In this document: positions 132 through 34,040 of the stretch, one piece after another | Layout: every line of letters starts with the position of its first letter | How positions within the stretch are numbered: position 1 is the stretch's first letter | From: a virus | DNA: 34,040 nt | Strand: one strand, 5' to 3' | UHGV virus genome: UHGV-0159305 | The notes under the pieces: generated by a model | Seen by the model: only the letters and a program-made list of their open reading frames with translations | Databases searched by the model: none | Told to the model about the DNA's origin: nothing | Translations under genes and position numbers: made by a program

Positions 132-491
132 ATGGCAGACCGCAAACCGCCGGCACGGCTCAGCAAGTCAGCTCGAGCCCTTTGGGATGGCGTCACATCC
201 AAGTGGGATCTCCGTCCTGACGAGTTGCGTGTCCTCGAGGATGCGTGCCGTGAAGCATCCCTCGTCGATAGGATTGAACGGGAGCTCGGCTCCGACCTGC
301 TCACCCCGGGGTCCACAGGGCAAGTGCGAGCTCACCCGCTGCTCGGTGAAGTCCGCCAGCACCGCGTCGCCATGTCGCAGCTGCTGTCCCGCCTGAACCT
401 CCCCGACGCGGACGCTGAAGGTCGTGCGCAGGATGCCCGCACCCAGCATGCGCGACTCGCTGCGGTCGCCCGCTGGGGCGAGGCCCAGTAA
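132..491 (+). CDS. terminase small subunit (P27-family-like)
   Basis: 119-aa ORF directly upstream of, and overlapping (TAATG), the large terminase. The N-terminus (RLSKSARALWDGVTSKWDLRPDEL...LLT) resembles the P27-family phage TerS. RBS GGGAAGGA lies 6 nt before the ATG. Confidence 0.55.
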   Translation: MADRKPPARLSKSARALWDGVTSKWDLRPDELRVLEDACREASLVDRIERELGSDLLTPGSTGQVRAHPLLGEVRQHRVAMSQLLSRLNLPDADAEGRAQDARTQHARLAAVARWGEAQ

Positions 492-2233
492 TGGCCCGCG
501 CCCGGCAGGCCCCGGTCGTGTCGGACGACGAAATCGAACGGCGCGCGATCCGCGGCTACTACCAGCGCCTCCTCGCCGGCGGCACGCCACTGCCTGAGGG
601 TGCGCCCGTCGACGTTGTCGGCCCCGTCTGGTCCCGCCAAGAAGGGGCCTGGGAGCTCCCAGAGCGGACTATCGCCCTGGACGCGATGACATGGGCGTCC
701 CAGTGGCTGCGAGGCCCTGACGGGGGCCCGTGGAGGTTCACCGCCGAGCAGGCCCGCTTCCTCGCTTGGTACTACGCGGTCAACGAGACAGGCACATTCT
801 GCACGCCCACCGTCGTCCTGCAGCGCTGCAAGGGGTGGGGCAAGGACCCGCTCGCCGCCGTTGTGGCCTTGATCGCCCTGTGCGGGCCGTCTGTGCCCGC
901 GTCAGACGACGGCGGCGACACGTGGCACGGCCGGCCCGAAACGGACCCGTGGATCCGCCTGCTCGCCGTGTCCCAGGAGCAGACCCGCACCACGATGGGG
1001 AACATGCCGGCTCTGCTGCCACAGGAAACCCGCGAACACTACGCCCTGCACGTCGGCGCCGGCGGCGTGTCGCACAAGGACGGGTCCGCGGGAGTCATCG
1101 TCCCGATCACGTCCAACCCCGCCGCAGCCGAAGGTGCACGCGCCACCCTCACCGTCTGCACCGAAACGCAGAACTGGACCGCCTCCAACAACGGCATCGC
1201 CATGATGGGTGTCGTCCGCGGTGACGCCGCCAAGTCCCCGAAAGAACGCCAGGCCCGCGTCCTGCACCTGTGCAACGCGGCCCGCTCCGGTGTCGAGTCG
1301 GTCGGCCTAGCCGTCCGCGAAGCCCACGAACAAGGCCGCGACGCCGAGGCTGGCATCCTCTATGACTCACTCGAAGCCGACGCCACTGCCCAGCTCACCT
1401 ATGAAGCCGCCCCGGAGGTCGTGGGGGCGGTCCGCGGTGACGCCACCTGGCTGGTCCCAGACCGCATCATCCAAGACATCATGGACCCGTCCACGCCGCC
1501 GTCCGAGTCCAGGCGGAAGTGGTACAACCAGGTCGTTGCTGCCGACACCGCTTGGCTGGAACGGTCCGACTGGGACGCCTGCCTCGACAAGGACCTACCC
1601 GAACTCGACCCGGGCGACGAAGTCGCTGCGTTCTTCGATGGCGGCAAGTCCGACGACGCCACCGCCTGTGTGGCCGTGCGCATCTCTGACGGCGCCCCGT
1701 TCGTAGTCGGACTGTGGCAGCGGCCGCCGGACGCCCGTGCCCACGGGTGGGTCGCCCCCAGGGAGCGCATCGACACCGAGGTGCGCGACTTCGTTGAACA
1801 CCACAACGTGGTCGGCCTGTGGGCGGACCCGTCCCACGCCCTGGACGATGTCACTATGGAGCGTTTCTGGGACGGCATCGTAGACGGCTGGCACCAGGAC
1901 TACGGCCGGCGCCTCCCCCTGAAGGCGTCCCCGCAGCACGCCGTCAACTGGGACATGTCCGACCCGAAACACCACAAACAGTTCGTGTACGCCGCCCAGG
2001 CGCTCACCTCCGAGATCGACGCCCGACAGTTCGTCCATGACGGCGACCCGAGACTCCGCGCCCACGCACTCCACGCCGTCCGCTACCCCACCAAATGGGG
2101 CGTCTCAATCAGCAAAGACCACCGCGAATCCCGACGGAAGATTGACCTTGCTGTGTGTCTCATCGCGGCACGTATGATGAGGGCTGTATACCGCAACGGG
2201 CGCCGCAACCGATCGCGAGGGAAGATATGGTGA
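491..2233 (+). CDS. terL: terminase large subunit
   Basis: 580-aa ORF at the head of the structural module. It has an ATPase N-terminal half and a nuclease-like C-terminal half (acidic motifs such as FFDGGKSDDATACVAV). It is followed by the portal gene. Confidence 0.8.
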   Translation: MARARQAPVVSDDEIERRAIRGYYQRLLAGGTPLPEGAPVDVVGPVWSRQEGAWELPERTIALDAMTWASQWLRGPDGGPWRFTAEQARFLAWYYAVNETGTFCTPTVVLQRCKGWGKDPLAAVVALIALCGPSVPASDDGGDTWHGRPETDPWIRLLAVSQEQTRTTMGNMPALLPQETREHYALHVGAGGVSHKDGSAGVIVPITSNPAAAEGARATLTVCTETQNWTASNNGIAMMGVVRGDAAKSPKERQARVLHLCNAARSGVESVGLAVREAHEQGRDAEAGILYDSLEADATAQLTYEAAPEVVGAVRGDATWLVPDRIIQDIMDPSTPPSESRRKWYNQVVAADTAWLERSDWDACLDKDLPELDPGDEVAAFFDGGKSDDATACVAVRISDGAPFVVGLWQRPPDARAHGWVAPRERIDTEVRDFVEHHNVVGLWADPSHALDDVTMERFWDGIVDGWHQDYGRRLPLKASPQHAVNWDMSDPKHHKQFVYAAQALTSEIDARQFVHDGDPRLRAHALHAVRYPTKWGVSISKDHRESRRKIDLAVCLIAARMMRAVYRNGRRNRSRGKIW

Positions 2234-21350: not shown

Positions 21351-21351
21351 G

Positions 21352-22014: not shown

Positions 22015-22084
22015 GTCTAGGTTCCTTCCTTGTTGGACTGACGGGAACAATACTGCACCCCTGGCTTCCACCTGTCAACGCCGT

Positions 22085-22112
22085 CCCCCGTGAGGCTCGT
22101 CACTCACGGGGG
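22085..22112 (-). terminator. stem-loop (10-bp stem CCCCCGTGAG / CTCACGGGGG, 8-nt loop) downstream of the metallophosphoesterase gene
   Basis: Perfect inverted repeat read directly from the sequence, 80 nt after the stop codon at 22192. It probably separates two leftward transcription units. Confidence 0.5.
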
Positions 22113-22191
22113 AGGCCCCGCCCTCTCGCGCACCTCAAGGGGTGGGGAAGGCGGGGCCGAGGGATGTCGCGGGCCGCGACTCCAGGGTACC

Positions 22192-23621: not shown

Positions 23622-23712
23622 TGACTTGTTCCTTTCGTTTTATAAGGGTTTACGTGTAGTGAGGCGGGTGGGGGGTACTCCCGGCTGGTTTCCCTCCCAC
23701 CCGTTTCCCGCA

Positions 23713-24843: not shown

Positions 24844-25514
24844 GAGATCACCGCCATGGGAGTGCCGGTGGTGTCAGCCCGATACTGGTCCCACCCTCCG
24901 GCGTGACCGGTCTTGACGGTCCTGATGACGGACAGGCCGTCCGCCTGTTCGTATCCGATGCCGCCGCCGGCGAGGACGGCGATGGGGGTGTCGTTGCCGA
25001 AGCGGAAAGCCGCGTCCTGCAGCTGTCCCATGAGGCGACCGATTGTGAGGGTGCCGGTCTCCTGGGTGGCGTAGTCGCGGGCTGTAGCACCGCTGCCGGT
25101 GGATCCGAAGCCTCCCGTGCCGCGGTCGGTGTCGTCCTGGACGGCGCCCTTGACAACTTCGATGGCGGGCAGCTTGTGGATGATCAGCTGGCAGATGCGC
25201 TCCCTGGCGGCGACCAGCACCGGCTCCGCGAGGACGGCAACGAGGACCTTCAGGTTGCCTCGGTAGCCGGAGTCAATGACGCCGGCACCGTGCGGAATGA
25301 CTAGCCCCTTCGCGCCGGCCGAGGAACGCAGGACCAGTTCCCCGTAGTAGCCGTCGGGGATGGCGACCCGGATGCCGAGGTCGATCGTGTACACGGCGCC
25401 ACGGCGGACAAGGCAAGTCTGCCCTTCGGGGACGTACAGGTCCAGACCCGCGTCCGTGTCGTGTGCCCTGGTCGGGTCCTGCACGTTCATTGTCTTCTGG
25501 ACGGTGAGCTTCAT
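24840..25514 (-). CDS. dut: dUTPase with ~80-aa C-terminal extension
   Basis: The ORF-track ORF 24840..25535 was trimmed to the ATG at 25514, with GGAAGGAA 5 nt upstream and an ATGA overlap with the upstream gene. dUTPase motifs DAGLDLY, GVIDSGYRG and RGTGGFGSTG are present. About 80 aa follow motif V. Confidence 0.8.
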   Translation of the reverse strand: MKLTVQKTMNVQDPTRAHDTDAGLDLYVPEGQTCLVRRGAVYTIDLGIRVAIPDGYYGELVLRSSAGAKGLVIPHGAGVIDSGYRGNLKVLVAVLAEPVLVAARERICQLIIHKLPAIEVVKGAVQDDTDRGTGGFGSTGSGATARDYATQETGTLTIGRLMGQLQDAAFRFGNDTPIAVLAGGGIGYEQADGLSVIRTVKTGHAGGWDQYRADTTGTPMAVIS

Positions 25515-25879
25515 GAGTGTTCCTTCCTGCTCCATGGGGACCGGTCTCTGCCCCTGGTCAAATCATGCGGCTCGGCGTGGTATTTGTCAATGTCGCCTTC
25601 GTCCCAGGCGAGCGGGGAGTGGGCGCCGGCGGCGACGGCGGTCTCGTGCGCCACCTGCGACCCGTAGTTCACGGGAGCGAGATTGCACTGGTTACGGGAC
25701 CATGCGCACGCGATGAGGAGCCTGTCTTCTTCGGGCACGTACTCGCCGGCCCGGCCTTTCTGGATCGACTTGAGTTTCACTCCGGCCATGTCGGCGATCC
25801 GCTGCTCGGAGTGGCCGATCCACATGAGTGACAGGATCCGCCGCTGCACTCCGATCGGGGTGATGGTACGGAGTTTCAC
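25511..25879 (-). CDS. HTH DNA-binding protein (sigma-70 region-4-like)
   Basis: The ORF-track ORF 25511..25987 overlaps RecT. It was trimmed to the GTG at 25879, which overlaps the RecT stop by GTGA. The segment VQRRILSLMWIGHSEQRIADMAGVKLKSIQKGR resembles the sigma region-4 HTH. The start assignment is uncertain. Confidence 0.4.
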   Translation of the reverse strand: MKLRTITPIGVQRRILSLMWIGHSEQRIADMAGVKLKSIQKGRAGEYVPEEDRLLIACAWSRNQCNLAPVNYGSQVAHETAVAAGAHSPLAWDEGDIDKYHAEPHDLTRGRDRSPWSRKEHS

Positions 25880-26565
25880 TGCTCCCCCTGCGGCTCCGGG
25901 TTGACTCCTGCCTCCCACTTGTCGATGACGGCGGACAGGGAGTCGGGGTCGTCCATGCTGGCGCCGGCGGCCTGCGCCTGCTGCCACACCTCGTTGGCGT
26001 CCCGGCCGGTCTCGTGGCAGTAGTCCATGAGGATGGTGCGGGTCATGTCCCGCTGCGTGTGGTCCTGTGCGGGCTTCTGCGGGGCGTTCTGTGCGGGCGT
26101 GGACTCCAGTTCCTCGGGCGTGTATACGGTGCCCGCAAGGGCGTCAGACGCGCCCTGACGGCACACCTCGGTGATGGCCCTAGCGCGGAGCATCTGCCTC
26201 GGGTACTGCTGCCATGGTCCGCGGCTTCCCCACAGGCCAGCGGCCTGCGCCTTGCTCTTGTCCCAGGTGACGGTGAACTCGTAGTCGGTGTCGTCGGCGC
26301 GGATCAGGGTGGCGGTCACGGAGTCGCCGTCCTCGCGGAGGCGCAGCTTGTGTCCGGCGCGGCGGACTACGGCGCCCATCAGGTCCGCGGACATCGTCAT
26401 CTTGCCGCGAGCCACGACCATCGACTGCATCACCTGCGTGTACGGGACGCCCAGCGCGTCGCCGATGTCCATGGCCCACACAATGTCAGCGGGCTTGCCC
26501 CGGTACTCGGCGGGGATCAGTGAGGACTGGGCGACGATCTTCGCGTGCTCGATGCGGTCTGTCAT
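25876..26565 (-). CDS. recT: RecT-family ssDNA annealing protein
   Basis: The ORF-track ORF 25876..26631 was trimmed to the ATG at 26565, with GAAAGGAA 7 nt upstream and an ATGA overlap with the upstream gene. The N-terminus shows the RecT pattern (AQSSLIPAEYRGKPADIVWAMDIGDALGVPYTQVMQSM..VV.GK). Confidence 0.7.
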   Translation of the reverse strand: MTDRIEHAKIVAQSSLIPAEYRGKPADIVWAMDIGDALGVPYTQVMQSMVVARGKMTMSADLMGAVVRRAGHKLRLREDGDSVTATLIRADDTDYEFTVTWDKSKAQAAGLWGSRGPWQQYPRQMLRARAITEVCRQGASDALAGTVYTPEELESTPAQNAPQKPAQDHTQRDMTRTILMDYCHETGRDANEVWQQAQAAGASMDDPDSLSAVIDKWEAGVNPEPQGEQ

Positions 26566-26864
26566 TGAGGTGTTCCTTTCGTTATTGTGCCGAGAAGTTG
26601 GCTGGCTACGTCCGCGGGGTGGGCGTCGCATTGGTATGGCATATCGACGGTTGAGCGGCCGGCGTACATGGTGACTCCGGCCCGCCCTACATGGACGGTC
26701 ATGAGGTCTCGGTCACCCCAGTAAATGTACAGGGTTGCGGCCTCACTGTCAACTAGGGGCTCTTCGACGAGATAGTCGGGGCCGGGGTGGTCGCGGAGGC
26801 AGACGTCGGCGATGACCTTCGCCATGGCGATCCGGTCCGCGACACCGGCGTGACGGCCGATCAT
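26562..26864 (-). CDS. hypothetical protein
   Basis: 100-aa ORF coupled to its neighbours by ATGA overlaps at both ends. Confidence 0.45.
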   Translation of the reverse strand: MIGRHAGVADRIAMAKVIADVCLRDHPGPDYLVEEPLVDSEAATLYIYWGDRDLMTVHVGRAGVTMYAGRSTVDMPYQCDAHPADVASQLLGTITKGTPQ

Positions 26865-27145
26865 GACCGCCCCTCGCGGGCGTCATTGAGGGCCTCGCGG
26901 ATCGCGTTGTAGATGGCGTCCTTGGTGCCGTTCGGGTCGCACGCGTAGCGGCTGCCACCGGCGTCGAGGGTGTACAGACCGTCCTCGTCTACGCCGGCGA
27001 CCATGTTGCCTCGCTCAGTGCGGGCCTCGATGTACGGGGACCCGTAAGTGGTGCGCCGGAACGCGGCGTACTCGCCCTGGCCGAGGTGGTTGCGGATCGC
27101 CTCGAGGAGGGGCATGAGAAGGCGGGCCTGGTACAGAGGTGACAT
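26861..27145 (-). CDS. hypothetical protein
   Basis: 94-aa ORF with RBS GAAAGGAA 6 nt upstream of the ATG at 27145. Confidence 0.45.
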   Translation of the reverse strand: MSPLYQARLLMPLLEAIRNHLGQGEYAAFRRTTYGSPYIEARTERGNMVAGVDEDGLYTLDAGGSRYACDPNGTKDAIYNAIREALNDAREGRS

Positions 27146-27324
27146 TGGTGGTTCCTTTCAGCTGTGGCGGATGTTGATTGTCTGGATGCGCCCGGTGGCC
27201 GGGTCGGTGTAGGAGACGTGCTTCCAGTCGGCCATCTCAGCTCGTTCGACGCGGCGCCTGTACCTGGCGGCTGCGGCCTTCGCCGACTCGGACCGATTCT
27301 TCATTGCGGTGTTCTGTGGGATTC

Positions 27325-27615
27325 TCATGGCAGTGGTAGGTTTCTCAAAATGTTTTCCGCGCCGGCTTCGGCGTTCTTGTATTCAAATACCGGGGCCTGC
27401 GGGAGCGGCTTATTGGACGAGGCGACAACGATATTGAGGTCATTGTTGATGACCGCTACGCCGCGGCCTGGAATCACGATTGCGAACTTCTGGACATTCC
27501 CCATCGCGGACATCACGGTGACCGGCTTGGCCTCGGCGGGGAATCCGCGGCGACCGATCTCCTTCGCGATGTCGTTGGCCATGGACCAGGGGTCCTTCTT
27601 CTTGTGCCAGAGCAT
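27325..27615 (-). CDS. hypothetical protein (96 aa; MLWHKKKDPWSMANDIAKEIGRRGFPAEAKPVTVMSAMGNVQKFAIVIPG...)
   Basis: This is the real C-terminal third of the spurious-looking ORF 27325..27993. It starts at the ATG at 27615, overlapping the upstream stop (TGATG), with RBS GAGGAG 5 nt upstream. Confidence 0.4.
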   Translation of the reverse strand: MLWHKKKDPWSMANDIAKEIGRRGFPAEAKPVTVMSAMGNVQKFAIVIPGRGVAVINNDLNIVVASSNKPLPQAPVFEYKNAEAGAENILRNLPLP

Positions 27616-27908
27616 CAGTTCTCCTCGAGGGAGAGGAAGCCTCCAACGATTCGGCCGGAGTCCTTGAACGCGATCGGGTAGGAGACGTGGGCGCCGAGCT
27701 TCGACACGTACACGATGCGGTTGTGGTGGACGGCGACCTTCGCGGTGCAAGTGGTGCTGCCATTCTCGGCGATGGCGACCACGGCGGCGCCCGGGTAGCC
27801 GGCCCGGCCGACCTCGGTGGCGACAGCGCCGTAGCCGATCGTGTTCTCGCGGACCCACTTGGCGATGAGGGTCGCGGTGTCGTTCTGGGCGGTGGCTGAC
27901 AGGTACAT
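27615..27908 (-). CDS. hypothetical protein
   Basis: 97-aa ORF with RBS GGAAGGAA 6 nt upstream. Its amino-acid composition is plausible, unlike the overlapping ORFs in the other two frames. Confidence 0.45.
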   Translation of the reverse strand: MYLSATAQNDTATLIAKWVRENTIGYGAVATEVGRAGYPGAAVVAIAENGSTTCTAKVAVHHNRIVYVSKLGAHVSYPIAFKDSGRIVGGFLSLEEN

Positions 27909-27952
27909 AGGGTGTTCCTTCCTGGGGCTGTAGGAGCGTTTCTGAGGGCTGT

Positions 27953-28213
27953 TCAGCGGGTGGCTGTCGCCTGGTACCGGGGCTGGGCTGCAAGGGCCTC
28001 AGCGTGGCGGAGAGTGGCCTTCCTGCGGTTGCTGGACCGGGTGGCCTTGATGGCGACGGGCAGTCCGATGATCAGGGCCGGGACGGTAGCCGGGCCAACC
28101 CCGCCGGCGAGGAGGCCGGCGACCGCGCCGAGCACGACGACGATCGAGATGGTGGCGACCCAGGTGATCAGGGTGGTGGCTGCCTTGCTGGGGAGCTGGG
28201 TGGCGGCGTTCAT
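27953..28213 (-). CDS. small membrane protein (2 predicted transmembrane helices)
   Basis: The ORF-track ORF 27953..28273 was trimmed to the ATG at 28213 (MNAATQLPSK...), with AAGGAGGAA 4 nt upstream. It is the first gene of the leftward operon. Confidence 0.5.
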   Translation of the reverse strand: MNAATQLPSKAATTLITWVATISIVVVLGAVAGLLAGGVGPATVPALIIGLPVAIKATRSSNRRKATLRHAEALAAQPRYQATATR

Positions 28214-28636
28214 TTGGTTCCTCCTTGGTTGACCTGATGGGATCAATGTACGGCGTGTCGACACACCGGTCAACCCATGTCGCCGTGACGTTGGTCACCG
28301 TGTAGGGAGGTGGGTAGGGGTATCAAAATGAGCCGACCCACCCGGCTCAAAATGAGCCCCAAACCTTATCTAAGAAGATAAACACCCCCCTACCCCCCAC
28401 GACGCGGGTCGGGGGCGCATCCCAGGCCCGACACCCGCCGGCGCCGGCGGCGGACAGCTGTGGACGAGGCACCGCCCCGCACGGGCGGCACCTGCTACTG
28501 TTGACCCGTTGGTTGACAGCTGGCCGGGTTTTCGTTGTGTTCCTACCGGCCAGCCGGGGCCCGGGTTGAGCCACGAAGCTCCCCGGGCCCCCACCAACAG
28601 GCCAACAGGAACACAGCACAGGACAACGGAGAAGAC
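28214..28636. promoter_or_regulatory. divergent control region between the leftward early operon and the rightward replication operon
   Basis: A leftward promoter candidate has -35 TTGACC (28273..28268), a 17-nt spacer and -10 TACATT (28250..28245). The 10-bp perfect palindrome GTGTCGACAC (28255..28264) lies in its spacer. Further elements are the palindrome GTGACgttgGTCAC (28285..28298), direct repeats TCAAAATGAGCC at 28323 and 28347, the AT-rich palindrome TTATCTaagaAGATAA (28366..28381), and tandem TTGACc/TTGACA at 28501 and 28513. Confidence 0.55.
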
Positions 28637-29440
28637 ATGGAGTACTACAACACTCAAGTCATCGGGGCCATCAACATCCGCCCCTACTGGAGAACGCGCG
28701 ACCTCACCGGCGCGGACATCGCCACCCTCACCGCACTCTGCACCTGGTGGAACTGCGAGCGCATCTACCCCTCCAAAGACGCCATCCAGGCCCGCTCCGG
28801 CCAGTCGCGTGCGGCGACCACCCGAGCCCTCGCCCGCCTCACCGAACTCGGCATCATCGAAACCCGCCACACCGCAGGCAACACCAACGAATACGCCATC
28901 CACCTCGACGCTCTCCTCAACCACGACGGCCTCGTAGCAGCAGGCGCCAGCAGCCACGACCGCCTCACCGAACGGCCCCACACCTACAAGCCGCTCACCC
29001 CCGTCGCAGACCGAGTCACCGAAGACGACATCGCACGTGCGCGAGCCAGGCACGACAAGGCTGCAGCCAAGAAGCAGGCGCAGAAAGCGCAGGAAGCCCA
29101 GGAGCGAGCCGAATTCAACAAGGTGTACCCGGGCACCAAGGCGACCATCAGAGACTGGCAGAAAGCCCGACAGCACGCCGAGGCACGGGAAATCACCGAC
29201 GGTGCCAAAGCGTACGCAGACCAGTGCCGCCGCAGGGAAACCCCAACCCGCTACATCCGCACCGCACGCCGCTGGCTCGAAGACCACGACTGGGAGAACT
29301 ACCAACCCACCCAGCCAGCCGACACTACCGACCGACTCGGCAACCCCCACATCAACGACGCCGACCTCGTCAACGCCGAAGCCACCCCTGAACTCATGGC
29401 CAACATCGCAGCCATGTGGGACAACGCAACCAACAACTGA
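28637..29440 (+). CDS. replication initiator / helicase-loader-like protein with winged-helix DNA-binding domain
   Basis: The ORF-track ORF 28535..29440 was trimmed to the ATG at 28637. An N-terminal wHTH-like segment (IATLTALCTWWNCERIYPSKDAIQARSGQSRAATTRALARLTELGIIE) is followed by a charged coiled region. It lies immediately upstream of DnaB. Confidence 0.5.
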   Translation: MEYYNTQVIGAINIRPYWRTRDLTGADIATLTALCTWWNCERIYPSKDAIQARSGQSRAATTRALARLTELGIIETRHTAGNTNEYAIHLDALLNHDGLVAAGASSHDRLTERPHTYKPLTPVADRVTEDDIARARARHDKAAAKKQAQKAQEAQERAEFNKVYPGTKATIRDWQKARQHAEAREITDGAKAYADQCRRRETPTRYIRTARRWLEDHDWENYQPTQPADTTDRLGNPHINDADLVNAEATPELMANIAAMWDNATNN

Positions 29441-29461
29441 CACACCAGACAGGGAACACAA

Positions 29462-30715
29462 ATGGAAACCACTACCCTCGAACAGTGCCTCATCGGCTCA
29501 GCCCTCGCCGGCAACGAAGCGCAAACCGACACCACCTGGGCCACCACCCCAGACATGATCGCCAACACTAGGTACGCCACCATCTGGGGAATCATCCGCG
29601 ACCACTGGGCAATGGGCAGAATCCCCACCCCGGCGTCAGTCCTCGCGGAGGTGCGACGCCCGGCCACCGGCGAAGACATCCTCGACTGCGTCCACGCCTC
29701 AGTGAACCCCACAGACGCAGACCACTACGCCCGCCTCGTCCAAGAAGCCTCCGCCAAACGGGACGTCCATGACGTACTCACCCGCGCCGAGCAGCTCCTC
29801 CAGGGCGACTCCACCGCCGCCGAGGTCGCCTCATGGGCGCAGTCTCACATCGGATCCGCCGCCCCCGACGGTGACACCGTCTCCATGCCCTCCCTTGTCG
29901 ACCAGTGGTACACGGCGAGGAAGGCTACCGGTGTCCGCACACCATGGACCGCAATCAACGACATCATCGGCATGCACCGGGACGGCGGCCTCCACGTCAT
30001 CGGTGCCCGACCCGCAGTGGGCAAGACCCTGTACGGCTTGTACCTCGCGTCCTGCGCCGCACGCAATGACAGGCACGTCCTCTACGTATCCATGGAAATG
30101 CCCGCCCGTGAACTCCTGCCTCGACTGCTGTCCCAGGCCACCGGCATCGCACTGAAGTACACGACCAGGGAGGAGCAGGCACCCGCCGACGTCGCTGACA
30201 TCCTCAACCGAGCAGCAGCCCAAGTCGCCGCCATGCCGATCCACATCAGCGACAAGGCCGGCATGTCCGTCGAACAGGTCGCAGCATCGGCCCGCACGCT
30301 CCACCACAAGAAGAAGCTCGGCGCGGTCGTCATCGACCACATGCAGCTCCTCGCCCCGTCCCGCGGTGTGCCCGGCTCCTCGCTCCGAGAGGTAGTCACC
30401 TACCAATCCAGGGCGCTCAAGGAACTGGCCCTCGAACTGGACGTCCCAGTGTTCGCCCTGTCGCAGCTGTCCCGTGCATCCGAGATGAGAGACGACCTCG
30501 CCCCGAAGCTCGCCGACCTCCGCGAGTCAGGCAGCATCGAGCAGGACGCGGACACTGTCACCCTCCTCAGCCTGCCTGTCCGTAACGGCGTCCCCGACCG
30601 GACGCGACTCGCCGTATCCGTAGCCAAGAACAGGCACGGCGCAACCGGCGACGCGGAACTCATCCGCCAGCCCGCCATGGCCGTGCTCGCAGAACCTACC
30701 CGAGAAGGCCACTGA
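29462..30715 (+). CDS. dnaB: DnaB-family replicative helicase
   Basis: 417-aa ORF with Walker A GARPAVGKT, SMEM, VVIDHMQLL, ALSQLSRASE and LRESGSIEQDAD, matching DnaB motifs H1-H4. Confidence 0.85.
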   Translation: METTTLEQCLIGSALAGNEAQTDTTWATTPDMIANTRYATIWGIIRDHWAMGRIPTPASVLAEVRRPATGEDILDCVHASVNPTDADHYARLVQEASAKRDVHDVLTRAEQLLQGDSTAAEVASWAQSHIGSAAPDGDTVSMPSLVDQWYTARKATGVRTPWTAINDIIGMHRDGGLHVIGARPAVGKTLYGLYLASCAARNDRHVLYVSMEMPARELLPRLLSQATGIALKYTTREEQAPADVADILNRAAAQVAAMPIHISDKAGMSVEQVAASARTLHHKKKLGAVVIDHMQLLAPSRGVPGSSLREVVTYQSRALKELALELDVPVFALSQLSRASEMRDDLAPKLADLRESGSIEQDADTVTLLSLPVRNGVPDRTRLAVSVAKNRHGATGDAELIRQPAMAVLAEPTREGH

Positions 30716-30732
30716 CAGCCACGCAGACAAGC

Positions 30733-30769
30733 GAACGCCCCCCGCCCGGTACTCGGGTAGGGGGCGTTC
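30733..30769 (+). terminator. stem-loop terminator after dnaB (GAACGCCCCC...GGGGGCGTTC, ~15 bp pairing)
   Basis: Read directly from the sequence, 18 nt after the dnaB stop. Confidence 0.6.
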
Positions 30770-30863
30770 CCGTTGGGCCGGCAGCGGCGCTCACACAGCC
30801 TCCGTGTACACAGGGGGGACGAGTACCATAAGAACACCCGCACCAACCAATAGGAGACCGCAC

Positions 30864-31076
30864 ATGACCCGCACTCTCTACATAGTCGCCGCCGTCGCAG
30901 GCGCCCTCTCCGCCATCCACGCCGCACTCCTCTGGTATGCAGGCCTCACCACCGGGGAACTCGACATCTCCACCAGCCTCCTCTGGACGGTCGTCTCCGC
31001 CGTCTGCCTCGCATCCCTCCGCCCCATCCGCTGGGCCAGGAAGCACGGCAACCACCCAGGCTTCCACCGCCGCTAA
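30864..31076 (+). CDS. small membrane protein (2 transmembrane helices)
   Basis: The ORF-track ORF 30804..31076 was trimmed to the ATG at 30864 (MTRTLYIVAAVAGALSAIHAALLWYAGL...), with RBS GGAGA 7 nt upstream. Confidence 0.45.
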   Translation: MTRTLYIVAAVAGALSAIHAALLWYAGLTTGELDISTSLLWTVVSAVCLASLRPIRWARKHGNHPGFHRR

Positions 31077-31083
31077 CCACCAA

Positions 31084-31118
31084 GGATCCCCCGACACCAA
31101 CACGGTGCCGGGGGATCC
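31084..31118 (+). terminator. stem-loop (10-bp stem GGATCCCCCG / CGGGGGATCC, 15-nt loop)
   Basis: Read directly from the sequence, 8 nt after the stop of 30864..31076. Confidence 0.5.
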
Positions 31119-31234
31119 GTCCACCTCCATGCAATCACCGCACCACCCAACAACCGACAGGGACCTTGTACCCAGGTAGACCGGGTGGCCCATTCCCGCG
31201 CCCGCGCCCCGTTGGGGCTATGACACCAAACCCA

Positions 31235-31430
31235 TAGATATCTAGGTAGTAGACAGTAGGCGCCTGTGGATATGTGGACAACCCCGCCTACCGTTGCAAC
31301 CCCAACGCCCACCACCCCACAACCACCTGTGGATAACTCGAGGGGCGCAGTGGATTACCTGTATGCACAACCACTTACCCACAGGTTATCCACAACCAAT
31401 CCACAAGGCTTCCCACCCGGTTACCCACAT
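31235..31430. promoter_or_regulatory. origin-like DnaA-box / iteron cluster, preceded by the AT-rich palindrome TAGATATCTA (31235..31244)
   Basis: Eight 9-mers fall within 165 bp, on both strands. Two are rc TTATCCACA (31328..31336; perfect) and + TTATCCACA (31386..31394; perfect). One is rc TTGTCCACA (31273..31281; the actinobacterial consensus). The 8/9 matches are rc ATATCCACA at 31265 and + TTACCCACA at 31375 and 31421. The 7/9 matches lie at ~31350 and ~31397. Several are extended to the 11-mer TTATCCACAGG. Confidence 0.5.
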
Positions 31431-31567
31431 GACCCAACACACAGGGGAGGGCTAAAGTCCCAGCCCGGGGTCAACCTTCAGACACCAGCAGCCCCCCAAC
31501 CACCCCCCACCCACCAAGGACCTAGACACACCACCCCACCACCCCACCGCCCCACTACCATAGGCGC

Positions 31568-32020
31568 ATGACATGGACCACCAGCGACCGACGGCAACGA
31601 CTCCCAAAAAACTGGAACCAAATCCGAAAACAAATACTGCAAACAACAAACGGAAAATGTGCAGGCCTCGCCGACCCCGGGTGGGGTACCGGGTACTGGG
31701 AGGATGGCCCCGCGGGCACCCCCTATGCCGGCCCCCGGTGGCACCACACCGACTGCACAACACTCGCCACAGATGTGGACCACATCCAACGAGGAGATTT
31801 AAACAGGTCAGGCAACCTCCAACCCCTGTGCCACGCCTGCCATGCCGCCAAGACCACCGCCGAGGTCCGTGCAATACACGCACACAAGACACGCATGCGA
31901 ACACGACCGACACCACAACATCCTTGCGACAAACAACAAAACAAAGCGAAACGAAACGAAAAGCAAAAACGAAACAAAACAAGCGAAACGCAAACCAAAA
32001 ACCGCGAACGCGAAATCTGA
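31568..32020 (+). CDS. HNH endonuclease (C-terminal ~45 aa is low-complexity translation of an A-rich tract)
   Basis: The HNH motif CAG...DVDHIQRGDLNRSGNLQPLCHACHAAKT is present. The reading frame runs on through the (GAAAC)n tract, giving a KQQNKAKRNEKQKRNK.. tail. Confidence 0.7.
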   Translation: MTWTTSDRRQRLPKNWNQIRKQILQTTNGKCAGLADPGWGTGYWEDGPAGTPYAGPRWHHTDCTTLATDVDHIQRGDLNRSGNLQPLCHACHAAKTTAEVRAIHAHKTRMRTRPTPQHPCDKQQNKAKRNEKQKRNKTSETQTKNREREI

Positions 32021-32050
32021 AACGAAACGAAAATCCGCTGCGAAAAAACG
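31928..32050 (+). repeat. purine/A-rich low-complexity tract with two copies of GAAACGAAACGAAAA (31948..31962 and 32019..32033) and related GAAAC units
   Basis: Read directly from the sequence. Roughly 60% A in a ~70% GC genome. It spans the HNH stop codon. Confidence 0.6.
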
Positions 32051-32070
32051 ACCGGCACCCCTGGCGGTGA

Positions 32071-32104
32071 CTCCCCCGCCCCCACACACGAAAGACCGGG
32101 GGAG
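32071..32104 (+). terminator. stem-loop (8-bp stem CTCCCCCG / CGGGGGAG, 18-nt loop)
   Basis: Read directly from the sequence, downstream of the HNH stop and the A-rich tract. Confidence 0.4.
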
Positions 32105-32228
32105 ATAGCAACTCCGCGGCTGGATGCTCCTTGCCACACGTTTTCCCCGTGACGACCGCCACTCGACCGGCCCGTTACCCTGGAACCAACCACCCCGACC
32201 CGACGGGGTGCAACAGACAGGAGGGCAG

Positions 32229-33626
32229 ATGTCAGCATCACCCGCAACCGCCGCAGCCCAGATGGAGTACTGGGCCACCTGCGGCCCCGGAAAGCCGCAG
32301 GGAGGTGACTACAGCGTCGGCTACTCGCAGCCCGACCGGTGGATGGCGTACGAACGGTCCACGGACCTCGGCTGGCTCACCGCGGACGCCAACATGGACT
32401 GCTCCGCCGGTGTCGCCGCGGCCTGGAACTTCGCTTTCCATGCGGACGGCGAGCCCTGGGACTCGTCCGTTATGTTCCCCAGGGACACGTACACCGGCAA
32501 CATCCGCGGCTACGCCACCTCCAGGGGCTTCGAGGATGTCCACTGGGACGACAGCAGCCTCTACCCCGACGGCGGCCTTCAGGTCGGCGACCTGATCCTC
32601 TCTGAGGCGGCCTCTGGCGGCGCCGGCCACGTCGCCATGGTCACCAAGAACGGCCTGTCCGAAGCTTGGATCGCCGAGGACGGGTCAATCGACGGGTACA
32701 TCGGCGACCAGACCGGCTCTGAGTGCCGGTGCGTGTCCTATGAGGGGCACCTGTACACGCAGACGGCCCGGTGGACGCACTGTCTCCGCTATCTCGGCGG
32801 CACCGCGGCGCCTGTTCCGCCGTCGCAGGAGCAGTCACGCGCCTCGCACGACGGGTACGAGCTGTCCTACGTGCAGCAGGCTGTGCTCCGCGCCGCTGAC
32901 AACGTCGGATGCCCCTGGTGGGCTGCGCTCGCGGCCCTGTGGATGGAGACCGGCGAGTATGGCGCGAACATCTTCGGCCATGACGCCGGCGGCGCCTACT
33001 GCGGCGGCGGCGAAGTCACCGAAGCAAAGTTCCGGGACTTCTACGCACAGATCAGCGCTGGGGCCGCGTCCAACGGCGTCGGCCCGCTGCAGGTCACGTA
33101 CCCCGGCTACTTCTTCAACGACCCCGACCGGGCTTGGTGGGACCCTGAGAAGTCCGCCGAGGTCGGCTGTGGCATCATCCGGGACCTCATTAACGCGGAA
33201 GGCGACTCGTACGAGGACCTGAAGCGTGTCGGATCCCGCTACAATTCGGGTAGCGCGTACGGCGCCTACGAGGCGTACGGCGAACCCTTCAGCGACCGGT
33301 GCAGGTCGTGGTACAACTACGGGCGCCCCAACGGCGCAGGACAGGAGGCATGGGAAATGGCTGAAGGCGTTGACCTTCTCAGGGAGATCAGGGATCTGTT
33401 CAGGTCCGGGCAGGCTGGCGACCACTTCGCCGGCGACATGAACTGGTACGCGAAGGCGACCTACGAGGAGACCAAGGCGATCCACGCTGCGGTTGACAAG
33501 GTCCTCGACGCGTTGACCCCCGGCCAGGAGGGCGTCAAGTCTGCGGGGGCGATCTACGGTGCTGTCAGCGACATTCGCGCCGCCGTGAAGCCCGCCGACG
33601 TTGAGCGGCCCGACGCTGCGAAGTGA
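32229..33626 (+). CDS. endolysin (N-terminal NlpC/P60- or CHAP-like Cys/His peptidase, central lysozyme-like transglycosylase-type domain, C-terminal region)
   Basis: The ORF-track ORF 32124..33626 was trimmed to the ATG at 32229, with GGAGGG 3 nt upstream. It has a Cys-His pair (MDCSAGVAAAW ... GHVAMV) and an SLT-like motif (LWMETGEYGANIFGHDAGGAY ... GPLQVTYPGYF). A holin gene lies downstream. Confidence 0.7.
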   Translation: MSASPATAAAQMEYWATCGPGKPQGGDYSVGYSQPDRWMAYERSTDLGWLTADANMDCSAGVAAAWNFAFHADGEPWDSSVMFPRDTYTGNIRGYATSRGFEDVHWDDSSLYPDGGLQVGDLILSEAASGGAGHVAMVTKNGLSEAWIAEDGSIDGYIGDQTGSECRCVSYEGHLYTQTARWTHCLRYLGGTAAPVPPSQEQSRASHDGYELSYVQQAVLRAADNVGCPWWAALAALWMETGEYGANIFGHDAGGAYCGGGEVTEAKFRDFYAQISAGAASNGVGPLQVTYPGYFFNDPDRAWWDPEKSAEVGCGIIRDLINAEGDSYEDLKRVGSRYNSGSAYGAYEAYGEPFSDRCRSWYNYGRPNGAGQEAWEMAEGVDLLREIRDLFRSGQAGDHFAGDMNWYAKATYEETKAIHAAVDKVLDALTPGQEGVKSAGAIYGAVSDIRAAVKPADVERPDAAK

Positions 33627-33751
33627 CCCCACACATCGTCCCGTGCGCCGCCCACTGGTTCGCCGCTGCGGCGATCCTGGGCGCGTACTGGGTCGGGCGG
33701 CTCGAAGGCCGTCAAGAAACAACAGAGGAGAAAGATGAACCTGACTGCTGA
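33623..33751 (+). CDS. possible 42-aa transmembrane protein in the lysis cassette (VTPHIVPCAAHWFAAAAILGAYWVGRLEGRQETTEEKDEPDC)
   Basis: GTG start overlaps the endolysin stop by GTGA, the coupling pattern used throughout this genome. It has one hydrophobic helix. It overlaps the holin start by 17 nt in another frame. It is too short for the ORF track. Confidence 0.3.
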   Translation: MTPHIVPCAAHWFAAAAILGAYWVGRLEGRQETTEEKDEPDC

Positions 33752-34040
33752 GCAGAGTGCGACCCTGACCGCTGTGGCTGCCGTCGCGTGGCCCTTCGTC
33801 CAGGCGGCCCTGGACAAGCCGTACTGGACTGCGGGCAAGCGTCGTGCCCTGACCCTGGCTGCGGTTGTTCTGATCGCTGCGGGCACGTACTTCGTGGGCG
33901 CCTACCCGGCGACCGCTGAGGCTGCTGTCACCCAGCTTCTGTCCGTTGCCGGTCTCGTTCTCGGGGCTTTCAACGTTCTGAAGAGTGTGAAGATCAACGG
34001 CATTTCGATCCTCGACTGGGCGGGCATTGTCACCCCCGGC
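33735..34040 (+). CDS. holin-like membrane protein (5' partial; runs off the window end)
   Basis: ATG at 33735 lies 4 nt after GAGGAG. The frame is open to the end of the window (102 codons). Two to three hydrophobic helices are predicted (LTAVAAVAWPFVQAAL; ALTLAAVVLIAAGTYFVGAY; LLSVAGLVLGAFNVL). It sits directly after the endolysin. Confidence 0.55.
   Translation, partial: MNLTAEQSATLTAVAAVAWPFVQAALDKPYWTAGKRRALTLAAVVLIAAGTYFVGAYPATAEAAVTQLLSVAGLVLGAFNVLKSVKINGISILDWAGIVTPG

What the first reader, a model, noticed from the sequence alone, without database searches (positions are those of the whole stretch)
31928..32050. Extraordinary A-rich (GAAAC)n tract with a duplicated 15-mer spanning the HNH stop codon
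In a ~70% GC genome this ~120-bp stretch is ~60% A and almost purely purine on the + strand. The 15-mer GAAACGAAACGAAAA occurs twice (31948 and 32019), with many GAAAC/CAAAAC units between. The HNH reading frame runs through it, giving a 45-aa Lys/Asn/Gln/Arg-rich tail. Real HNH domains end ~50 aa earlier, so part of the HNH ORF is probably fortuitously open. Candidate roles are a DNA-unwinding element partnering the DnaA-box cluster ~500 bp upstream, a protein-binding repeat array (for example for a late activator, or a packaging signal near the genome end), a slippage-prone tract, or a bent or thermally unstable region.
Basis: seen in the sequence. Interest (0 to 1): 0.6.

Follow-up and report, generated by a model that had tools for sequence, protein, structure and literature searches.

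The report
A-rich tract beside phage cos site
The adenine-rich stretch is real, but it is most likely a non-coding DNA element just inside the right cohesive end (the cos packaging site) of a small phage of a high-GC Gram-positive (actinobacterial) host, which the neighbouring HNH nuclease gene happens to read through; what it does is still unproven.

Summary
The tract (31928-32050) is real: 56% A, 3% T, 7 SD above the genome mean, with the 15-mer present twice. It is not a conserved HNH domain. HNH homology ends at an invariant His-Pro (residues 118-119). The 31-aa tail shows no third-codon-position signal. Relatives carry nonsense and frameshift variants, and one lineage stops before the tract yet keeps it.

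The main result is the tract's position. The window is a closed 34,040-bp phage genome. Its cohesive-end site lies 46 bp downstream of the tract, with a predicted 10-nt 3' overhang CGGGGGAGAT (32097-32106). This rests on homology to both termini of isolated phages and on 12 metagenomic contig ends within -10..+12 of the junction.

Four lineages (HNH 44-57% identical) keep an A-rich, T-poor tract of near-constant length at -180..-57 from the end. About 48 more distant HNH relatives and four isolates lack it.

Best reading (confidence 0.45): a composition-constrained accessory arm of cos, acting at the DNA level in packaging.

Rivals:
- an unstructured RNA spacer in an HNH-to-lysin transcript
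- a weakly useful basic protein tail
- a neutral repeat relic

The replication-unwinding idea is not supported. Interest is modest.

The parts
31556..31561 (+). -10-like hexamer TACCAT, 6 nt before the HNH ATG (candidate promoter for a leaderless HNH mRNA)
   Evidence: A TANNNT hexamer sits at the same spacing in all four lineages although its sequence differs (TACCAT, TAGGAT, TACCCT/TACACT, TAGGGT). No Shine-Dalgarno sequence is visible. The promoter role is inferred.
31568..31927 (+). HNH endonuclease core (residues 1-120), ending at the invariant His-Pro motif
   Evidence: PHROG 333 HNH endonuclease, E = 1e-24. Phage homologues align to residues 1-119/121. H118 and P119 are invariant, and Footloose HNH ends 4 residues later. 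Third-codon-position diversity exceeds first and second.
31928..32050 (+). A-rich, T-poor degenerate (RAAAC)n tract; the finding itself; -179..-57 from the cos junction
   Evidence: composition and repeats; conserved composition, length and position in four lineages; no period-3 or codon signal.
31928..32020 (+). Part of the tract translated as the HNH tail (residues 121-150 plus the TGA stop)
   Evidence: Tail variants in relatives (nonsense, frameshift). dN/dS 0.39-0.61 against 0.25-0.35 in the core.
32045..32057 (.). Last A-run of the right arm (AAAACGACCGGCA); imperfect inverted repeat of 32132-32144 across cos
   Evidence: 77% complementary. Lineage g2 has CGAAAACC / GGTTTTCG in the equivalent places.
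32059..32065 (+). CCCTGGC box, conserved in all four lineages and in a 49.5-kb relative
32071..32104 (.). C-rich segment with inverted repeat CTCCCCCG / CGGGGGAG; the most conserved stretch of the region
   Evidence: Nucleotide diversity (pi) 0.046 in g1 and 0.028 in g2. The hairpin itself is not kept in g2.
32097..32106 (+). Predicted 10-nt 3' cohesive end CGGGGGAGAT; right end of the virion DNA
   Evidence: Contigs L267 and L279 stop at ...GAC, just before it. Footloose ends ...GGTCGCCGGGGAT, and Bernal13, Mendokysei and Attoomi end ...AT.
32107..32116 (+). First bases of the left genome end (AGCAACTCCG)
   Evidence: Isolates start AGCCGCTCCG (Footloose) and AGCACCTGTG (Bernal13, Mendokysei). 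Contig L028 starts AGCAAT; L020 and L039 start TAGCAA.
32140..32148 (+). T-run GTTTTCCCC at +34..+42; candidate small-terminase site by analogy with HK97
   Evidence: T-rich patch at +20..+40 in g1, g2, g3 and in Footloose, Bernal13 and Mendokysei. The HK97 small-terminase site lies at +15..+29 and has an essential A-tract (PMC11331095). The analogy is inferred.
32176..32181 (+). -10-like hexamer TACCCT upstream of the lysin gene
   Evidence: A TANNNT hexamer is kept in g1/g2 (TACCCT), g3 (TACCTT) and g4 (TAACCT). The promoter role is inferred.
32229..33626 (+). Endolysin gene, first gene after cos
   Evidence: Pfam PF25309 endolysin-like domain; 95-98% identical across g1 and g2.
132..491 (+). 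Terminase small subunit
   Evidence: PHROG 1496, E = 3e-20; 37-43% identity to annotated TerS genes of Footloose, Bernal13, Mendokysei, prophi91-3 and Bbif-1.
491..2233 (+). Terminase large subunit
   Evidence: 45% identity to Footloose TerL over the full length.

Best explanation
The tract is a composition-constrained, functionally non-coding DNA element. It forms the inner part of the right arm of the cohesive-end (cos) packaging site of a 34-kb cos/HNH-type phage.

Shown:
- The window is a closed genome.
- The cut site is about 46-56 bp downstream of the tract.
- An A-rich, T-poor tract of nearly fixed length lies between the end of the HNH core and cos in four diverged lineages.
- The tract persists whether or not it is translated.

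Inferred mechanism:
- During concatemer processing the terminase complex (large subunit, ring-shaped small subunit, HNH helper) meets this 125-bp run of short A-tracts just before the nick site.
- The narrow-groove, easily deformed and easily melted A-runs would serve as a shape-read docking or positioning surface, or as a host nucleoid-protein site. The last run mirrors a T-run on the other side of the cut.
- This would help halt and place the nucleases on cos, in the way the A-tract of the HK97 small-terminase site or the I1/cosQ accessory sites of lambda do.

Translation of about 90 nt of the tract as a Lys/Asn/Gln-rich HNH tail follows from the absence of T, and so of stop codons. It is not the reason the tract exists.
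For: (1) Position.
- Window end and start are contiguous in relatives, so this is a complete circularised genome.
- Both termini of the end-determined Microbacterium phage Footloose align with 32106|32107. The TerS-related Mycobacterium phages Bernal13 and Mendokysei also start AGC... and end ...T.
- Two contigs stop at ...GAC, 10 nt before the junction. Nine start between -7 and +12, three of them fused to Nextera adapter remnants. One shows a snap-back duplication there.

(2) Independence from coding.
- HNH homology ends at His-Pro 118-119. About 48 more distant relatives mostly stop 4-8 codons later.
- Diversity by codon position in the tail is 0.190/0.233/0.200 in g1 and 0.069/0.135/0.094 in g2. 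The core shows a clear third-position excess.
- There is no period-3 signal.
- Among 10 g1 sequences, 2 carry a nonsense codon at 131, 1 a double frameshift and 2 a +1 frameshift.
- In g3 the stop precedes the tract.
- About 35 nt of the tract always lies beyond the stop.

(3) Selection on composition, length and place.
- A is 45-61% and T 3-9% in g1-g4. Other non-coding stretches of the genome have 15-26% A.
- The distance from His-Pro to the junction is 177-180 nt in g1, 176-177 in g2 and 173-174 in g3, although HNH identity is only 44-57%.

(4) Linkage.
- HNH, tract, cos core, TerS and TerL differ between g1 and g2 (50-62% protein identity). The lysin lying between cos and TerS is 95-98% identical.

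(5) Precedent.
- HK97, also HNH-dependent, needs an A-tract in its small-terminase site, and the small terminase stalls the motor at cos (PMC11331095, PMC9410871).
- SPP1 has small-terminase sites on both sides of the cut, and lambda has an upstream termination subsite (PMC4669245).

(6) Symmetry.
- The last A-run is an inverted repeat of the left-arm T-run in g1 and g2.
Against: - No direct evidence of protein binding or of a packaging defect. The argument rests on position, conservation and analogy.
- The nearest isolates with the same type of end (Footloose, Bernal13, Mendokysei, Attoomi) have no A-rich tract in their last 260 nt. It is therefore not a general requirement of this terminase family.
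- In HK97 the small-terminase site is on the other side of the cut. This phage has a T-run there that fits that role better.
- Sequence conservation inside the tract is weak. Between-lineage identity is 0.60-0.72 against 0.56-0.61 for shuffled sequences. It tracks the HNH gene rather than the cos core or TerS.
- A-runs are spaced at half a helical turn, and predicted curvature is ordinary.
- The strict strand asymmetry (A, never T) is not needed for a duplex-shape function. It matches a regional sense-strand bias over 28-32 kb, which fits an RNA-level role equally well.
- Tail dN/dS is below 1 (0.39-0.61), and all 17 g2 and g4 tails are intact. Some protein-level value cannot be excluded.
Confidence: 0.45

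Rival explanations
1. RNA-level element. The tract is an unstructured, A-rich and U-poor spacer in a transcript that starts at a promoter directly upstream of HNH (leaderless mRNA). That transcript runs across the joined cos into the lysis and terminase genes. The spacer would affect transcript stability, processing, termination or read-through between HNH and the late genes.
For: - A TANNNT hexamer lies exactly 6 nt before the HNH ATG in all four lineages, with no Shine-Dalgarno sequence.
- Every gene from 28.5 kb through cos to the terminase is on the + strand.
- The asymmetry is strictly sense-strand (A, not T). It is the extreme of a regional A>T, C>G sense-strand bias.
- The tract is predicted unpaired while the flanks fold.
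Against: - No Rfam family matches, and there is no intrinsic terminator on the + strand.
- C/G is only 1.4, and poly-A-like RNA is a poor Rho substrate (general knowledge, not tested here).
- A second conserved -10-like hexamer upstream of the lysin gene suggests the lysin need not depend on read-through.
- There is no covariation to test, because nothing is paired.
- The near-fixed distance to the cut site has no obvious RNA rationale.
Confidence: 0.2
2. Protein-level function. The tract exists to give the HNH nuclease a disordered, positively charged Lys/Asn/Gln/Arg tail that helps it hold DNA or terminase. A-rich DNA encodes such a tail in any frame, so frameshifts are tolerated.
For: - The HNH frame runs through about 90 nt of the tract in g1, g2 and g4. 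The tail is 31 aa in g1 and g2, with the stop at a homologous TGAAAC.
- All 9 g2 and all 8 g4 tails are intact. dN/dS is 0.39-0.61, below 1.
- One g1 genome carries two compensating frameshifts that restore the C-terminus.
Against: - In g3 the gene stops before the tract, yet the tract is retained.
- L003 and L210 truncate the tail to about 10 aa and still keep the remaining 85 nt A-rich.
- About 35 nt of the tract always lies after the stop.
- There is no third-position excess and no period 3.
- About 48 more distant homologues and the isolates have no tail.
- Synonymous divergence in the g4 tail is lower than in its core (0.164 against 0.263). This points to nucleotide-level constraint.
- The AlphaFold model was uninformative (mean pLDDT 41).
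Confidence: 0.12
3. No function. The tract is a relic of an expanded pentanucleotide microsatellite, or a decayed small gene like Footloose gene 72, that has hitch-hiked next to cos.
For: - Degenerate period-5 repeat structure.
- Highest nucleotide diversity of the region in g1 (pi 0.21-0.26).
- Small indels and variable homopolymer lengths after the stop.
- Absent from related isolates, which carry a 159-nt ORF in that position.
Against: - In a 66% GC genome, 45-61% A with 3-9% T has been kept in four lineages whose HNH proteins are only 44-57% identical. Other non-coding DNA here has 15-26% A.
- Length is 126-129 nt in ten g1 genomes, and the distance to cos varies by 7 nt or less across g1-g3.
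- In g2 the first 50 nt of the tract is among the most conserved DNA of the region (pi 0.039).
Confidence: 0.12
4. DNA-unwinding element of a replication origin, working with the DnaA-box cluster at 31265-31429.
For: - The DnaA-box cluster is real: six boxes with at most one mismatch in 170 nt, three of them perfect.
- The tract is the least stable 100 nt of the genome.
- A replication initiator and a DnaB helicase gene lie just upstream.
Against: - The separation is 500 bp, with a complete, conserved HNH gene in between.
- A nearer A-rich patch exists at 31600-31660.
- Lineage g3 keeps the tract but has no DnaA-box-like site within 3 kb upstream of the lysin gene.
- The tract keeps its spacing to cos, not to the boxes.
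Confidence: 0.03

Closest known systems
cos region of HK97 (HNH gp74-dependent cos phage), including the small-terminase site with its 9-bp A-tract
   Same: - An HNH gene lies next to cos, with small and large terminase genes and a roughly 10-nt 3' overhang.
- An A/T-tract beside the cut is read through DNA shape and deformability.
- The small terminase stalls the motor at cos, and HNH stimulates cutting (PMC11331095, PMC9410871).
   Different: - The HK97 site is 15 bp long and lies +15..+29 on the left-end side.
- Here the tract is about 125 bp, lies on the right-end side (-179..-57) and consists of 13-17 short A-runs.
- A separate T-run at +34..+42 is the better positional counterpart of the HK97 site.
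- A lysis cassette sits between cos and TerS.
Lambda cos accessory subsites: cosQ (upstream, needed for termination) and cosB with its I1 bend site for the host protein IHF
   Same: These are accessory DNA flanking the nick site that is not itself cut. cosQ lies on the side packaged last. I1 works through DNA bending by a host protein (PMC4669245).
   Different: - cosQ is a highly conserved 7-bp sequence. The tract here is long, low in complexity and poorly conserved in sequence.
- Lambda has 5' overhangs and no HNH protein.
- No IHF-type consensus was found or tested here.
SPP1 pac region (small-terminase sites on both sides of the cut)
   Same: Recognition DNA lies on both sides of the cleavage site (PMC4669245). 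From my own recollection, not checked here, pacL contains A-tracts with intrinsic bending.
   Different: SPP1 is a headful (pac) phage. Here the A-runs are spaced 5-6 nt apart, not in helical phase, and no strong curvature is predicted.
Genome ends of Microbacterium phage Footloose and Mycobacterium phages Bernal13 and Mendokysei
   Same: - Related TerS and TerL (37-45% identity).
- The same junction pattern (...AT | AGC...), a C/G-rich right terminus and a T-run at +20..+40.
   Different: - None has an A-rich tract in the last 260 nt.
- Footloose has a 159-nt ORF between HNH and the end.
- TerS follows cos directly, with no lysis cassette.

Membership tests
cos (cohesive-end) packaging site of an HNH-dependent terminase system | Unique genome termini at a fixed staggered cut | tested here: met
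   The evidence is indirect. Both ends of three end-determined isolates align with 32106|32107. Twelve contig termini fall within -10..+12: two at ...GAC|, and one each at AGCAAT, TAGCAAT and TAGCAAC. Adapter remnants and a snap-back duplication occur there too. No virion read data were available.
cos (cohesive-end) packaging site of an HNH-dependent terminase system | HNH, TerS and TerL genes adjacent to the site | tested here: met
   HNH ends 86 nt before the junction. TerS and TerL lie about 2.1 kb after it, beyond the lysin and a holin-like gene. These genes co-vary as a module between lineages.
cos (cohesive-end) packaging site of an HNH-dependent terminase system | The tract itself is required for cutting or packaging | not testable with these tools
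   This needs packaging, transduction or in-vitro cleavage assays.
HK97-type small-terminase binding site | Short site with an A/T-tract 15-30 bp on the left-end side of the cut | tested here: not met
   The tract is on the right-end side at -179..-57. A T-run at +34..+42 (32140-32148) fits the position better.
Lambda cosQ-type termination subsite | Short, highly conserved sequence just upstream of the nick site | tested here: not met
   The tract is 125 nt long, with pi up to 0.26 within g1 and between-lineage identity barely above shuffled controls.
C-terminal domain of the HNH endonuclease family | Conserved in homologues and under protein-level purifying selection | tested here: not met
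   - Homology ends at residue 119-121.
- About 48 distant relatives lack a tail.
- There is no third-position excess.
- Nonsense and frameshift variants occur.
- g3 stops before the tract.

dN/dS of 0.39-0.61 leaves room for weak constraint.
DNA-unwinding element of a DnaA-dependent origin | AT-rich element directly adjacent to, and co-occurring with, the DnaA-box cluster | tested here: not met
   The element is 500 bp away with a gene in between. g3 has the tract without boxes.
Phased A-tract intrinsic bend | A-tracts repeated every 10-11 bp, giving strong predicted curvature | tested here: not met
   Spectral peaks fall at 5-6 nt and none at 10-10.5 nt. In a wedge model the end-to-end/contour ratio is 0.956, only the 5.7th percentile and not among the top peaks. 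The model parameters were recalled from memory.
Intrinsic transcription terminator / known RNA family | GC hairpin followed by a U-run on the transcribed strand, or a match to an Rfam model | tested here: not met
   No + strand terminator and no relevant Rfam hit.

The most novel reading that the evidence does not exclude
The tract could be a new kind of cos subsite. It is a roughly 125-bp, T-free array of short A-runs spaced at half a helical turn. Such DNA would be straight, stiff and easily melted. It would act on the last DNA to enter the capsid. It might serve as an approach or brake signal that slows the terminase motor just before the terminal cut. Alternatively it might be the segment that ends up inside the portal and tail channel and leads DNA ejection. 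Nothing like this has been described for cos phages as far as the papers I read show.
Probability: 0.15. Interest if true: 0.6.

Novelty: new variant of a known kind. Interest (0 to 1): 0.35.

Why it matters
If the tract is a working part of cos, then packaging sites of HNH-dependent phages can include long, low-complexity arms that are read by composition on the side packaged last. The HK97 model does not describe this, and motif-based cos prediction would miss it.

In practical terms:
- The work fixes the genome ends and the likely 10-nt overhang for an uncultured clade of about 34-kb actinobacterial phages from human-associated metagenomes.
- The annotated HNH C-terminus in these genomes should not be taken as a domain.
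- The work defines a small, testable DNA segment for packaging assays.

If the tract turns out to be neutral or only an RNA spacer, the finding is ordinary.

Tried and rejected
- blastn of 31200-32300 against isolated phage genomes gave no match.
- The genome-collection scan with HNH found only unrelated HNH genes.
- The single metagenome scan used a pattern that was too degenerate and was swamped by chance hits. It still yielded two relatives, L210 and L234.
- L005-L008 are unrelated HNH phages.
- Pfam did not detect the HNH domain at E <= 0.01; PHROGs did.
- The word-indexed protein search returned only six close relatives.
- The AlphaFold2 model of the HNH protein had mean pLDDT 41 and was unusable for judging the tail.
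- The cos-proximal hairpin CTCCCCCG/CGGGGGAG is not significantly stable and is not kept in g2. I do not treat it as a structure.
- Alternative + frames were checked, including a TTG/ATG-started 48-aa basic ORF. They are broken by a stop in L004 and by indels elsewhere.
- Minus-strand ORFs across the tract are open only because the minus strand lacks A there.
- No sigma-70-type promoter was found in 30.7-32.4 kb.
- A further scan for the cos core in viral contigs found only clade members plus one chance hit.
- A literature search found no described close relative or host.
- The host was not identified. The best protein matches are to phages of Microbacterium, Bifidobacterium and Mycobacterium.
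Full report
**1. Observation**

Positions 31928-32050 are 56% A, 24% C, 17% G and 3% T in a 65.8% GC sequence. They contain the most A-rich 123-nt window of the 34,040 nt (0.569 against mean 0.183, sd 0.054). The next non-overlapping window reaches 0.398. The same stretch holds the most AT-rich window and the least stable 100-nt window (z = 3.5).

GAAACGAAACGAAAA occurs at 31948 and 32019. The second copy begins inside the HNH stop codon (TGA, 32018-32020). Tandem Repeats Finder reports a degenerate 5-nt array and a 32-nt higher-order repeat.

- The tract is 73% purine, not almost purely purine.
- The genome is 66% GC, not about 70%.
- The tail is about 31 aa, not 45-50.

Because T is nearly absent, no stop codon can form on the + strand. 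Because A is nearly absent on the complement, none can form there either. All six frames are therefore open, and the open frame says nothing by itself.

**2. Genome context**

The window carries these genes:
- terminase small subunit (132-491) and large subunit (491-2233), then portal and structural genes
- a leftward block with an exonuclease, a RecT-like protein and a dUTPase
- a rightward block with a replication initiator (28535-29440), a DnaB helicase (29462-30715) and the HNH gene (31568-32020)
- an endolysin (32229-33626) and a 116-aa holin-like ORF that runs across the window's end into its start

In relatives the last and first 400 nt of the window are contiguous (for example L018, 4812|4813). 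The window is therefore a closed, arbitrarily opened genome of 34,040 bp. An ENA metagenome scaffold of 34,058 nt encodes the identical HNH protein. No isolated phage matches at the DNA level. The nearest isolates by protein are Microbacterium phage Footloose, Bifidobacterium phage Bbif-1 and several Mycobacterium phages.

**3. Where the HNH protein really ends**

- tblastn against 50,697 phage genomes aligns homologues only to residues 1-119/121.
- In an alignment of four lineages plus Footloose, His118-Pro119 is invariant. Footloose HNH ends four residues later.
- Among 80 viral-contig relatives, the roughly 48 with 44% identity or less mostly stop 4-8 codons after this His-Pro(-Gly) motif.

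The tail therefore comprises residues 120/121-150.

**4. Relatives**

Searches with the HNH gene, the lysin, DNA patterns and exact-protein look-ups gave about 30 contigs of the same phage clade, 30-35.6 kb where complete. They fall into four lineages.

| Lineage | Members | HNH identity to the window |
|---|---|---|
| g1 | window plus 9 others | 82-93% |
| g2 | 9 or more | 51-57% |
| g3 | L038, L041, L279 | about 44% |
| g4 | 8-10 | about 48-53% |

- All four lineages have an A-rich, T-poor tract between the His-Pro codons and a conserved CCCTGGC box. A is 45-61% and T is 3-9%.
- Other non-coding stretches of the window have 15-26% A.
- In the 48 distant relatives, the highest A fraction in any 100-nt window within 420 nt downstream of HNH is 0.15-0.38, with one at 0.47. 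In the clade it is 0.48-0.65.
- The last 260 nt of Footloose, Bernal13, Mendokysei and Attoomi contain no such tract.

The tract is therefore a clade-specific feature that has been maintained. It is not an assembly artefact.

**5. Is it kept for the protein?**

Evidence against:
- Nucleotide diversity (pi) by codon position in the HNH core shows the expected third-position excess: 0.092/0.069/0.134 in g1 and 0.074/0.062/0.132 in g2. The tail shows none: 0.190/0.233/0.200 and 0.069/0.135/0.094.
- There is no 3-nt periodicity.
- Among ten g1 genomes, five have the canonical 150-aa product. Two (L003, L210) carry a nonsense codon at 131 and have lost the usual stop. One (L245) has -1 and -2 indels that shift the middle of the tail into another frame. 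Two (L246, L247) have a +1 insertion that changes the C-terminus.
- In g3 the gene stops at ...NVTQVI*, before the GAAAC-rich tract. The whole tract is then untranslated yet retained.
- About 35 nt of the tract always follows the stop.

Evidence for some protein-level value:
- All 17 g2 and g4 tails are intact.
- g1 and g2 tails are both 31 aa.
- dN/dS in the tail is 0.61, 0.39 and 0.45 for g1, g2 and g4. In the cores it is 0.35, 0.29 and 0.25.

These ratios come from about 31 codons. They are confounded by nucleotide-level constraint: g4 tail dS is 0.164 against 0.263 in its core.

I conclude that the tail is probably made and tolerated, perhaps mildly useful. It does not explain why the tract exists.

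**6. The tract lies just inside the physical genome end**

Three lines of evidence agree.

(a) Homology to determined termini.
- Footloose ends ...CTCACCCTAAAAGGTCGCCGGGGAT and starts AGCCGCTCCGGTCC...GTTTTTTCGCCCCTGG.
- The window reads ...CACACGAAAGACCGGGGGAGAT|AGCAACTCCGCGG...GTTTTCCCCGTG.
- Bernal13 and Mendokysei start AGCACCTGTGG... and have T-runs at +24..+40. Bernal13 ends ...AT and Mendokysei ends ...TT.

(b) Metagenomic contig termini.
- On the right side, L267 (a 33,730-nt contig, g4) and L279 (g3) stop at ...GAAAGAC and ...GAAGAC(T), 10 nt before the junction. L096 stops at +4.
- On the left side, genuine phage sequence begins at -7, -1, -1, +1, +5, +5/6, +9, +10 and +12 in nine contigs.
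- Three of those nine are fused there to Nextera adapter remnants. A tenth contig (L013) has a snap-back inverted duplication centred there.

(c) Module linkage. The segment is part of a module that changes together with the terminase genes (section 8).

Removal of 3' overhangs during library end-repair would leave exactly ...GAC on the right and AGCAA... on the left. I therefore predict a 10-nt 3' overhang, CGGGGGAGAT, at 32097-32106 (CGCCGGAGGT in g2). The tract then occupies -179..-57 relative to the junction. The HNH gene is the last gene of the virion DNA. The lysin, the holin-like gene, TerS and TerL are the first.

**7. Constraint on place and length**

The distance from the His-Pro codons to the junction is 177-180 nt in g1, 176-177 in g2 and 173-174 in g3. 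Tract length in g1 is 126-129 nt.

Sequence conservation is weak. Between-lineage identity is 0.60-0.72 against 0.56-0.61 for composition-matched shuffles (z = 2.3-5.8). Within g1 the tract is the most variable segment (pi 0.21). The C-rich segment next to the cut is the most conserved (pi 0.046 in g1, 0.028 in g2).

What is conserved, then, is composition, length and position.

**8. Linkage to the packaging genes**

| Protein | g1 vs g2 identity | g1 vs g3 identity |
|---|---|---|
| Lysin | 95-98% | 64% |
| HNH | 51-57% | about 44% |
| TerS | 50-53% | 72-76% |
| TerL | 62% | 77% |

- g3 shares the g1 overhang and flanks. The cos core therefore tracks the terminase, while the tract tracks the adjoining HNH gene.
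- This mosaic pattern ties HNH, tract, cos and terminase together as a packaging module.
- It gives no sign of lineage-specific sequence matching between the tract and TerS.

**9. Physical properties**

- A-runs of 3-8 nt (10-17 per tract) recur every 5-6 nt, about half a helical turn. There is no 10-10.5-nt signal.
- A wedge-model calculation gives ordinary curvature: an end-to-end/contour ratio of 0.956, the 5.7th percentile and not among the eight strongest peaks. The dinucleotide parameters were recalled from memory.
- The last A-run (32045-32057) is an imperfect inverted repeat of the left-arm T-run (32132-32144). g2 has CGAAAACC / GGTTTTCG at the equivalent places.

**10. Other roles tested**

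- Origin unwinding. The DnaA-box cluster is real: six boxes with at most one mismatch between 31265 and 31429, and it is kept in g2. It is 500 bp away with HNH in between. g3 has no such box within 3 kb yet keeps the tract.
- Known RNA or terminator. There is no relevant Rfam hit, no + strand intrinsic terminator and no sigma-70-type promoter.
- RNA spacer. A TANNNT hexamer sits exactly 6 nt before the HNH ATG in all four lineages, with no ribosome-binding site. This suggests a leaderless HNH transcript that would run through the tract and, on circular or concatemeric DNA, across cos. The strict A-not-T asymmetry is the extreme of a regional sense-strand bias. This reading stays open.

**11. 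Comparison with known systems**

- HK97 also depends on an HNH protein. Its small terminase binds a 15-bp site at +15..+29 whose 9-bp A-tract is essential through its deformability. The small terminase stalls the motor at cos, and the HNH protein stimulates cutting (PMC11331095, PMC9410871). Here the T-run at +34..+42 is the positional counterpart of that site. The long A-rich tract lies on the opposite arm.
- Lambda has an upstream termination subsite, cosQ, but it is a conserved 7-mer. Lambda cosB uses a host-induced bend. SPP1 has small-terminase sites on both sides of the cut (PMC4669245).
- The tract therefore resembles known accessory cos or pac DNA in position and in being A-tract-based. 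It fails the defining features of each specific subsite.

**12. Verdict**

The best-supported reading is a composition-constrained accessory arm of cos, acting at the DNA level in packaging or termination.
- That the tract is not kept for its coding capacity, and that it lies beside the genome end, I hold with high confidence.
- That it works in packaging I hold at about 0.45. The RNA-spacer reading is the main rival at 0.2.
- It is a new variant of a known kind and of modest interest.

Its practical results are a mapped cos site for an uncultured phage clade and a correction to the apparent HNH C-terminus.

Noticed in passing
window 31556-31570 and equivalents in L016, L038, L265: A TANNNT hexamer lies exactly 6 nt before the HNH ATG in all four lineages, although its sequence differs (TACCAT, TAGGAT, TACCCT/TACACT, TAGGGT). 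There is no Shine-Dalgarno sequence. HNH is probably expressed as a leaderless mRNA from its own promoter.
   Followed up: partly
window 32176-32228: Upstream of the lysin gene there is a conserved -10-like hexamer (TACCCT; TACCTT in g3, TAACCT in g4). It is followed by a hairpin that is kept as a structure while its sequence differs: CCCCG-ACCCGA-CGGGG at 32193-32208; GCCCCG...CGGGGC in g3; GGCGGCCG-AC-CGGCCGCC in g4. The hairpin sits just before the ribosome-binding site. This may be a leader stem controlling lysin expression.
   Followed up: no
window 31265-31429: A cluster of six DnaA-box-like 9-mers with at most one mismatch, three of them perfect: TTGTCCACA at 31273, TTATCCACA at 31328 and 31386. 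It is arranged as inverted groups, is the densest such cluster in the genome, is kept in lineage g2 and is absent from g3. It is a likely origin or regulatory region.
   Followed up: partly
window 32107-34040 plus 1-491: Unusual gene order. The lysis cassette (endolysin and a 116-aa holin-like ORF spanning the window junction, 33735 to 45) lies between cos and the small terminase gene. Lysis genes are therefore the first genes of the virion DNA.
   Followed up: partly
window versus L016/L017/L026/L032/L035: Mosaicism. The lysin is 95-98% identical between lineages whose HNH, TerS and TerL are only 50-62% identical. This implies recent exchange of either the lysis cassette or the packaging module.
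   Followed up: partly
window 31084-31118: A strong hairpin, GGATCCCCCG...CGGGGGATCC (DNA fold -16.4 kcal/mol, z = -5.2), follows the 90-aa ORF 30804-31076. It has no T-run and may be a terminator.
   Followed up: no
window 20000-32100: Sense-strand composition bias in the non-structural genes. A exceeds T and C exceeds G on the + strand over 28-32 kb (AT skew up to 0.45 per kb). The reverse holds over 21-28 kb, where the long ORFs are on the - strand. The HNH N-terminus uses A-ending codons despite the 66% GC genome.
   Followed up: no
L013, L025, L030, L040 (IMG/VR contigs): Public viral contigs carry library artefacts at the phage left end. Three have Nextera adapter remnants. L013, a 70,333-nt contig of about twice genome length, has a snap-back inverted duplication.
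   Followed up: no
window about 31520-31550 (CACCACCC repeats, 31527-31560): A second cluster of contig ends lies at -560..-586 from cos (L014, L021, L023, L027). It sits in C-rich low-complexity DNA just upstream of HNH. These are probably assembly breaks at the boundary of the variable module rather than physical ends.
   Followed up: no
L089/L345 (IMGVR_UViG_3300045988_137719, 49.5 kb): A larger, different phage has a closely related cos core (CCCCTGGCCCCGACTCCCCCCGCCCCC...GACCGGGGGAGTT|AGCATT). Its contig starts at -49, so whether it also has an A-rich arm is unknown.
   Followed up: no
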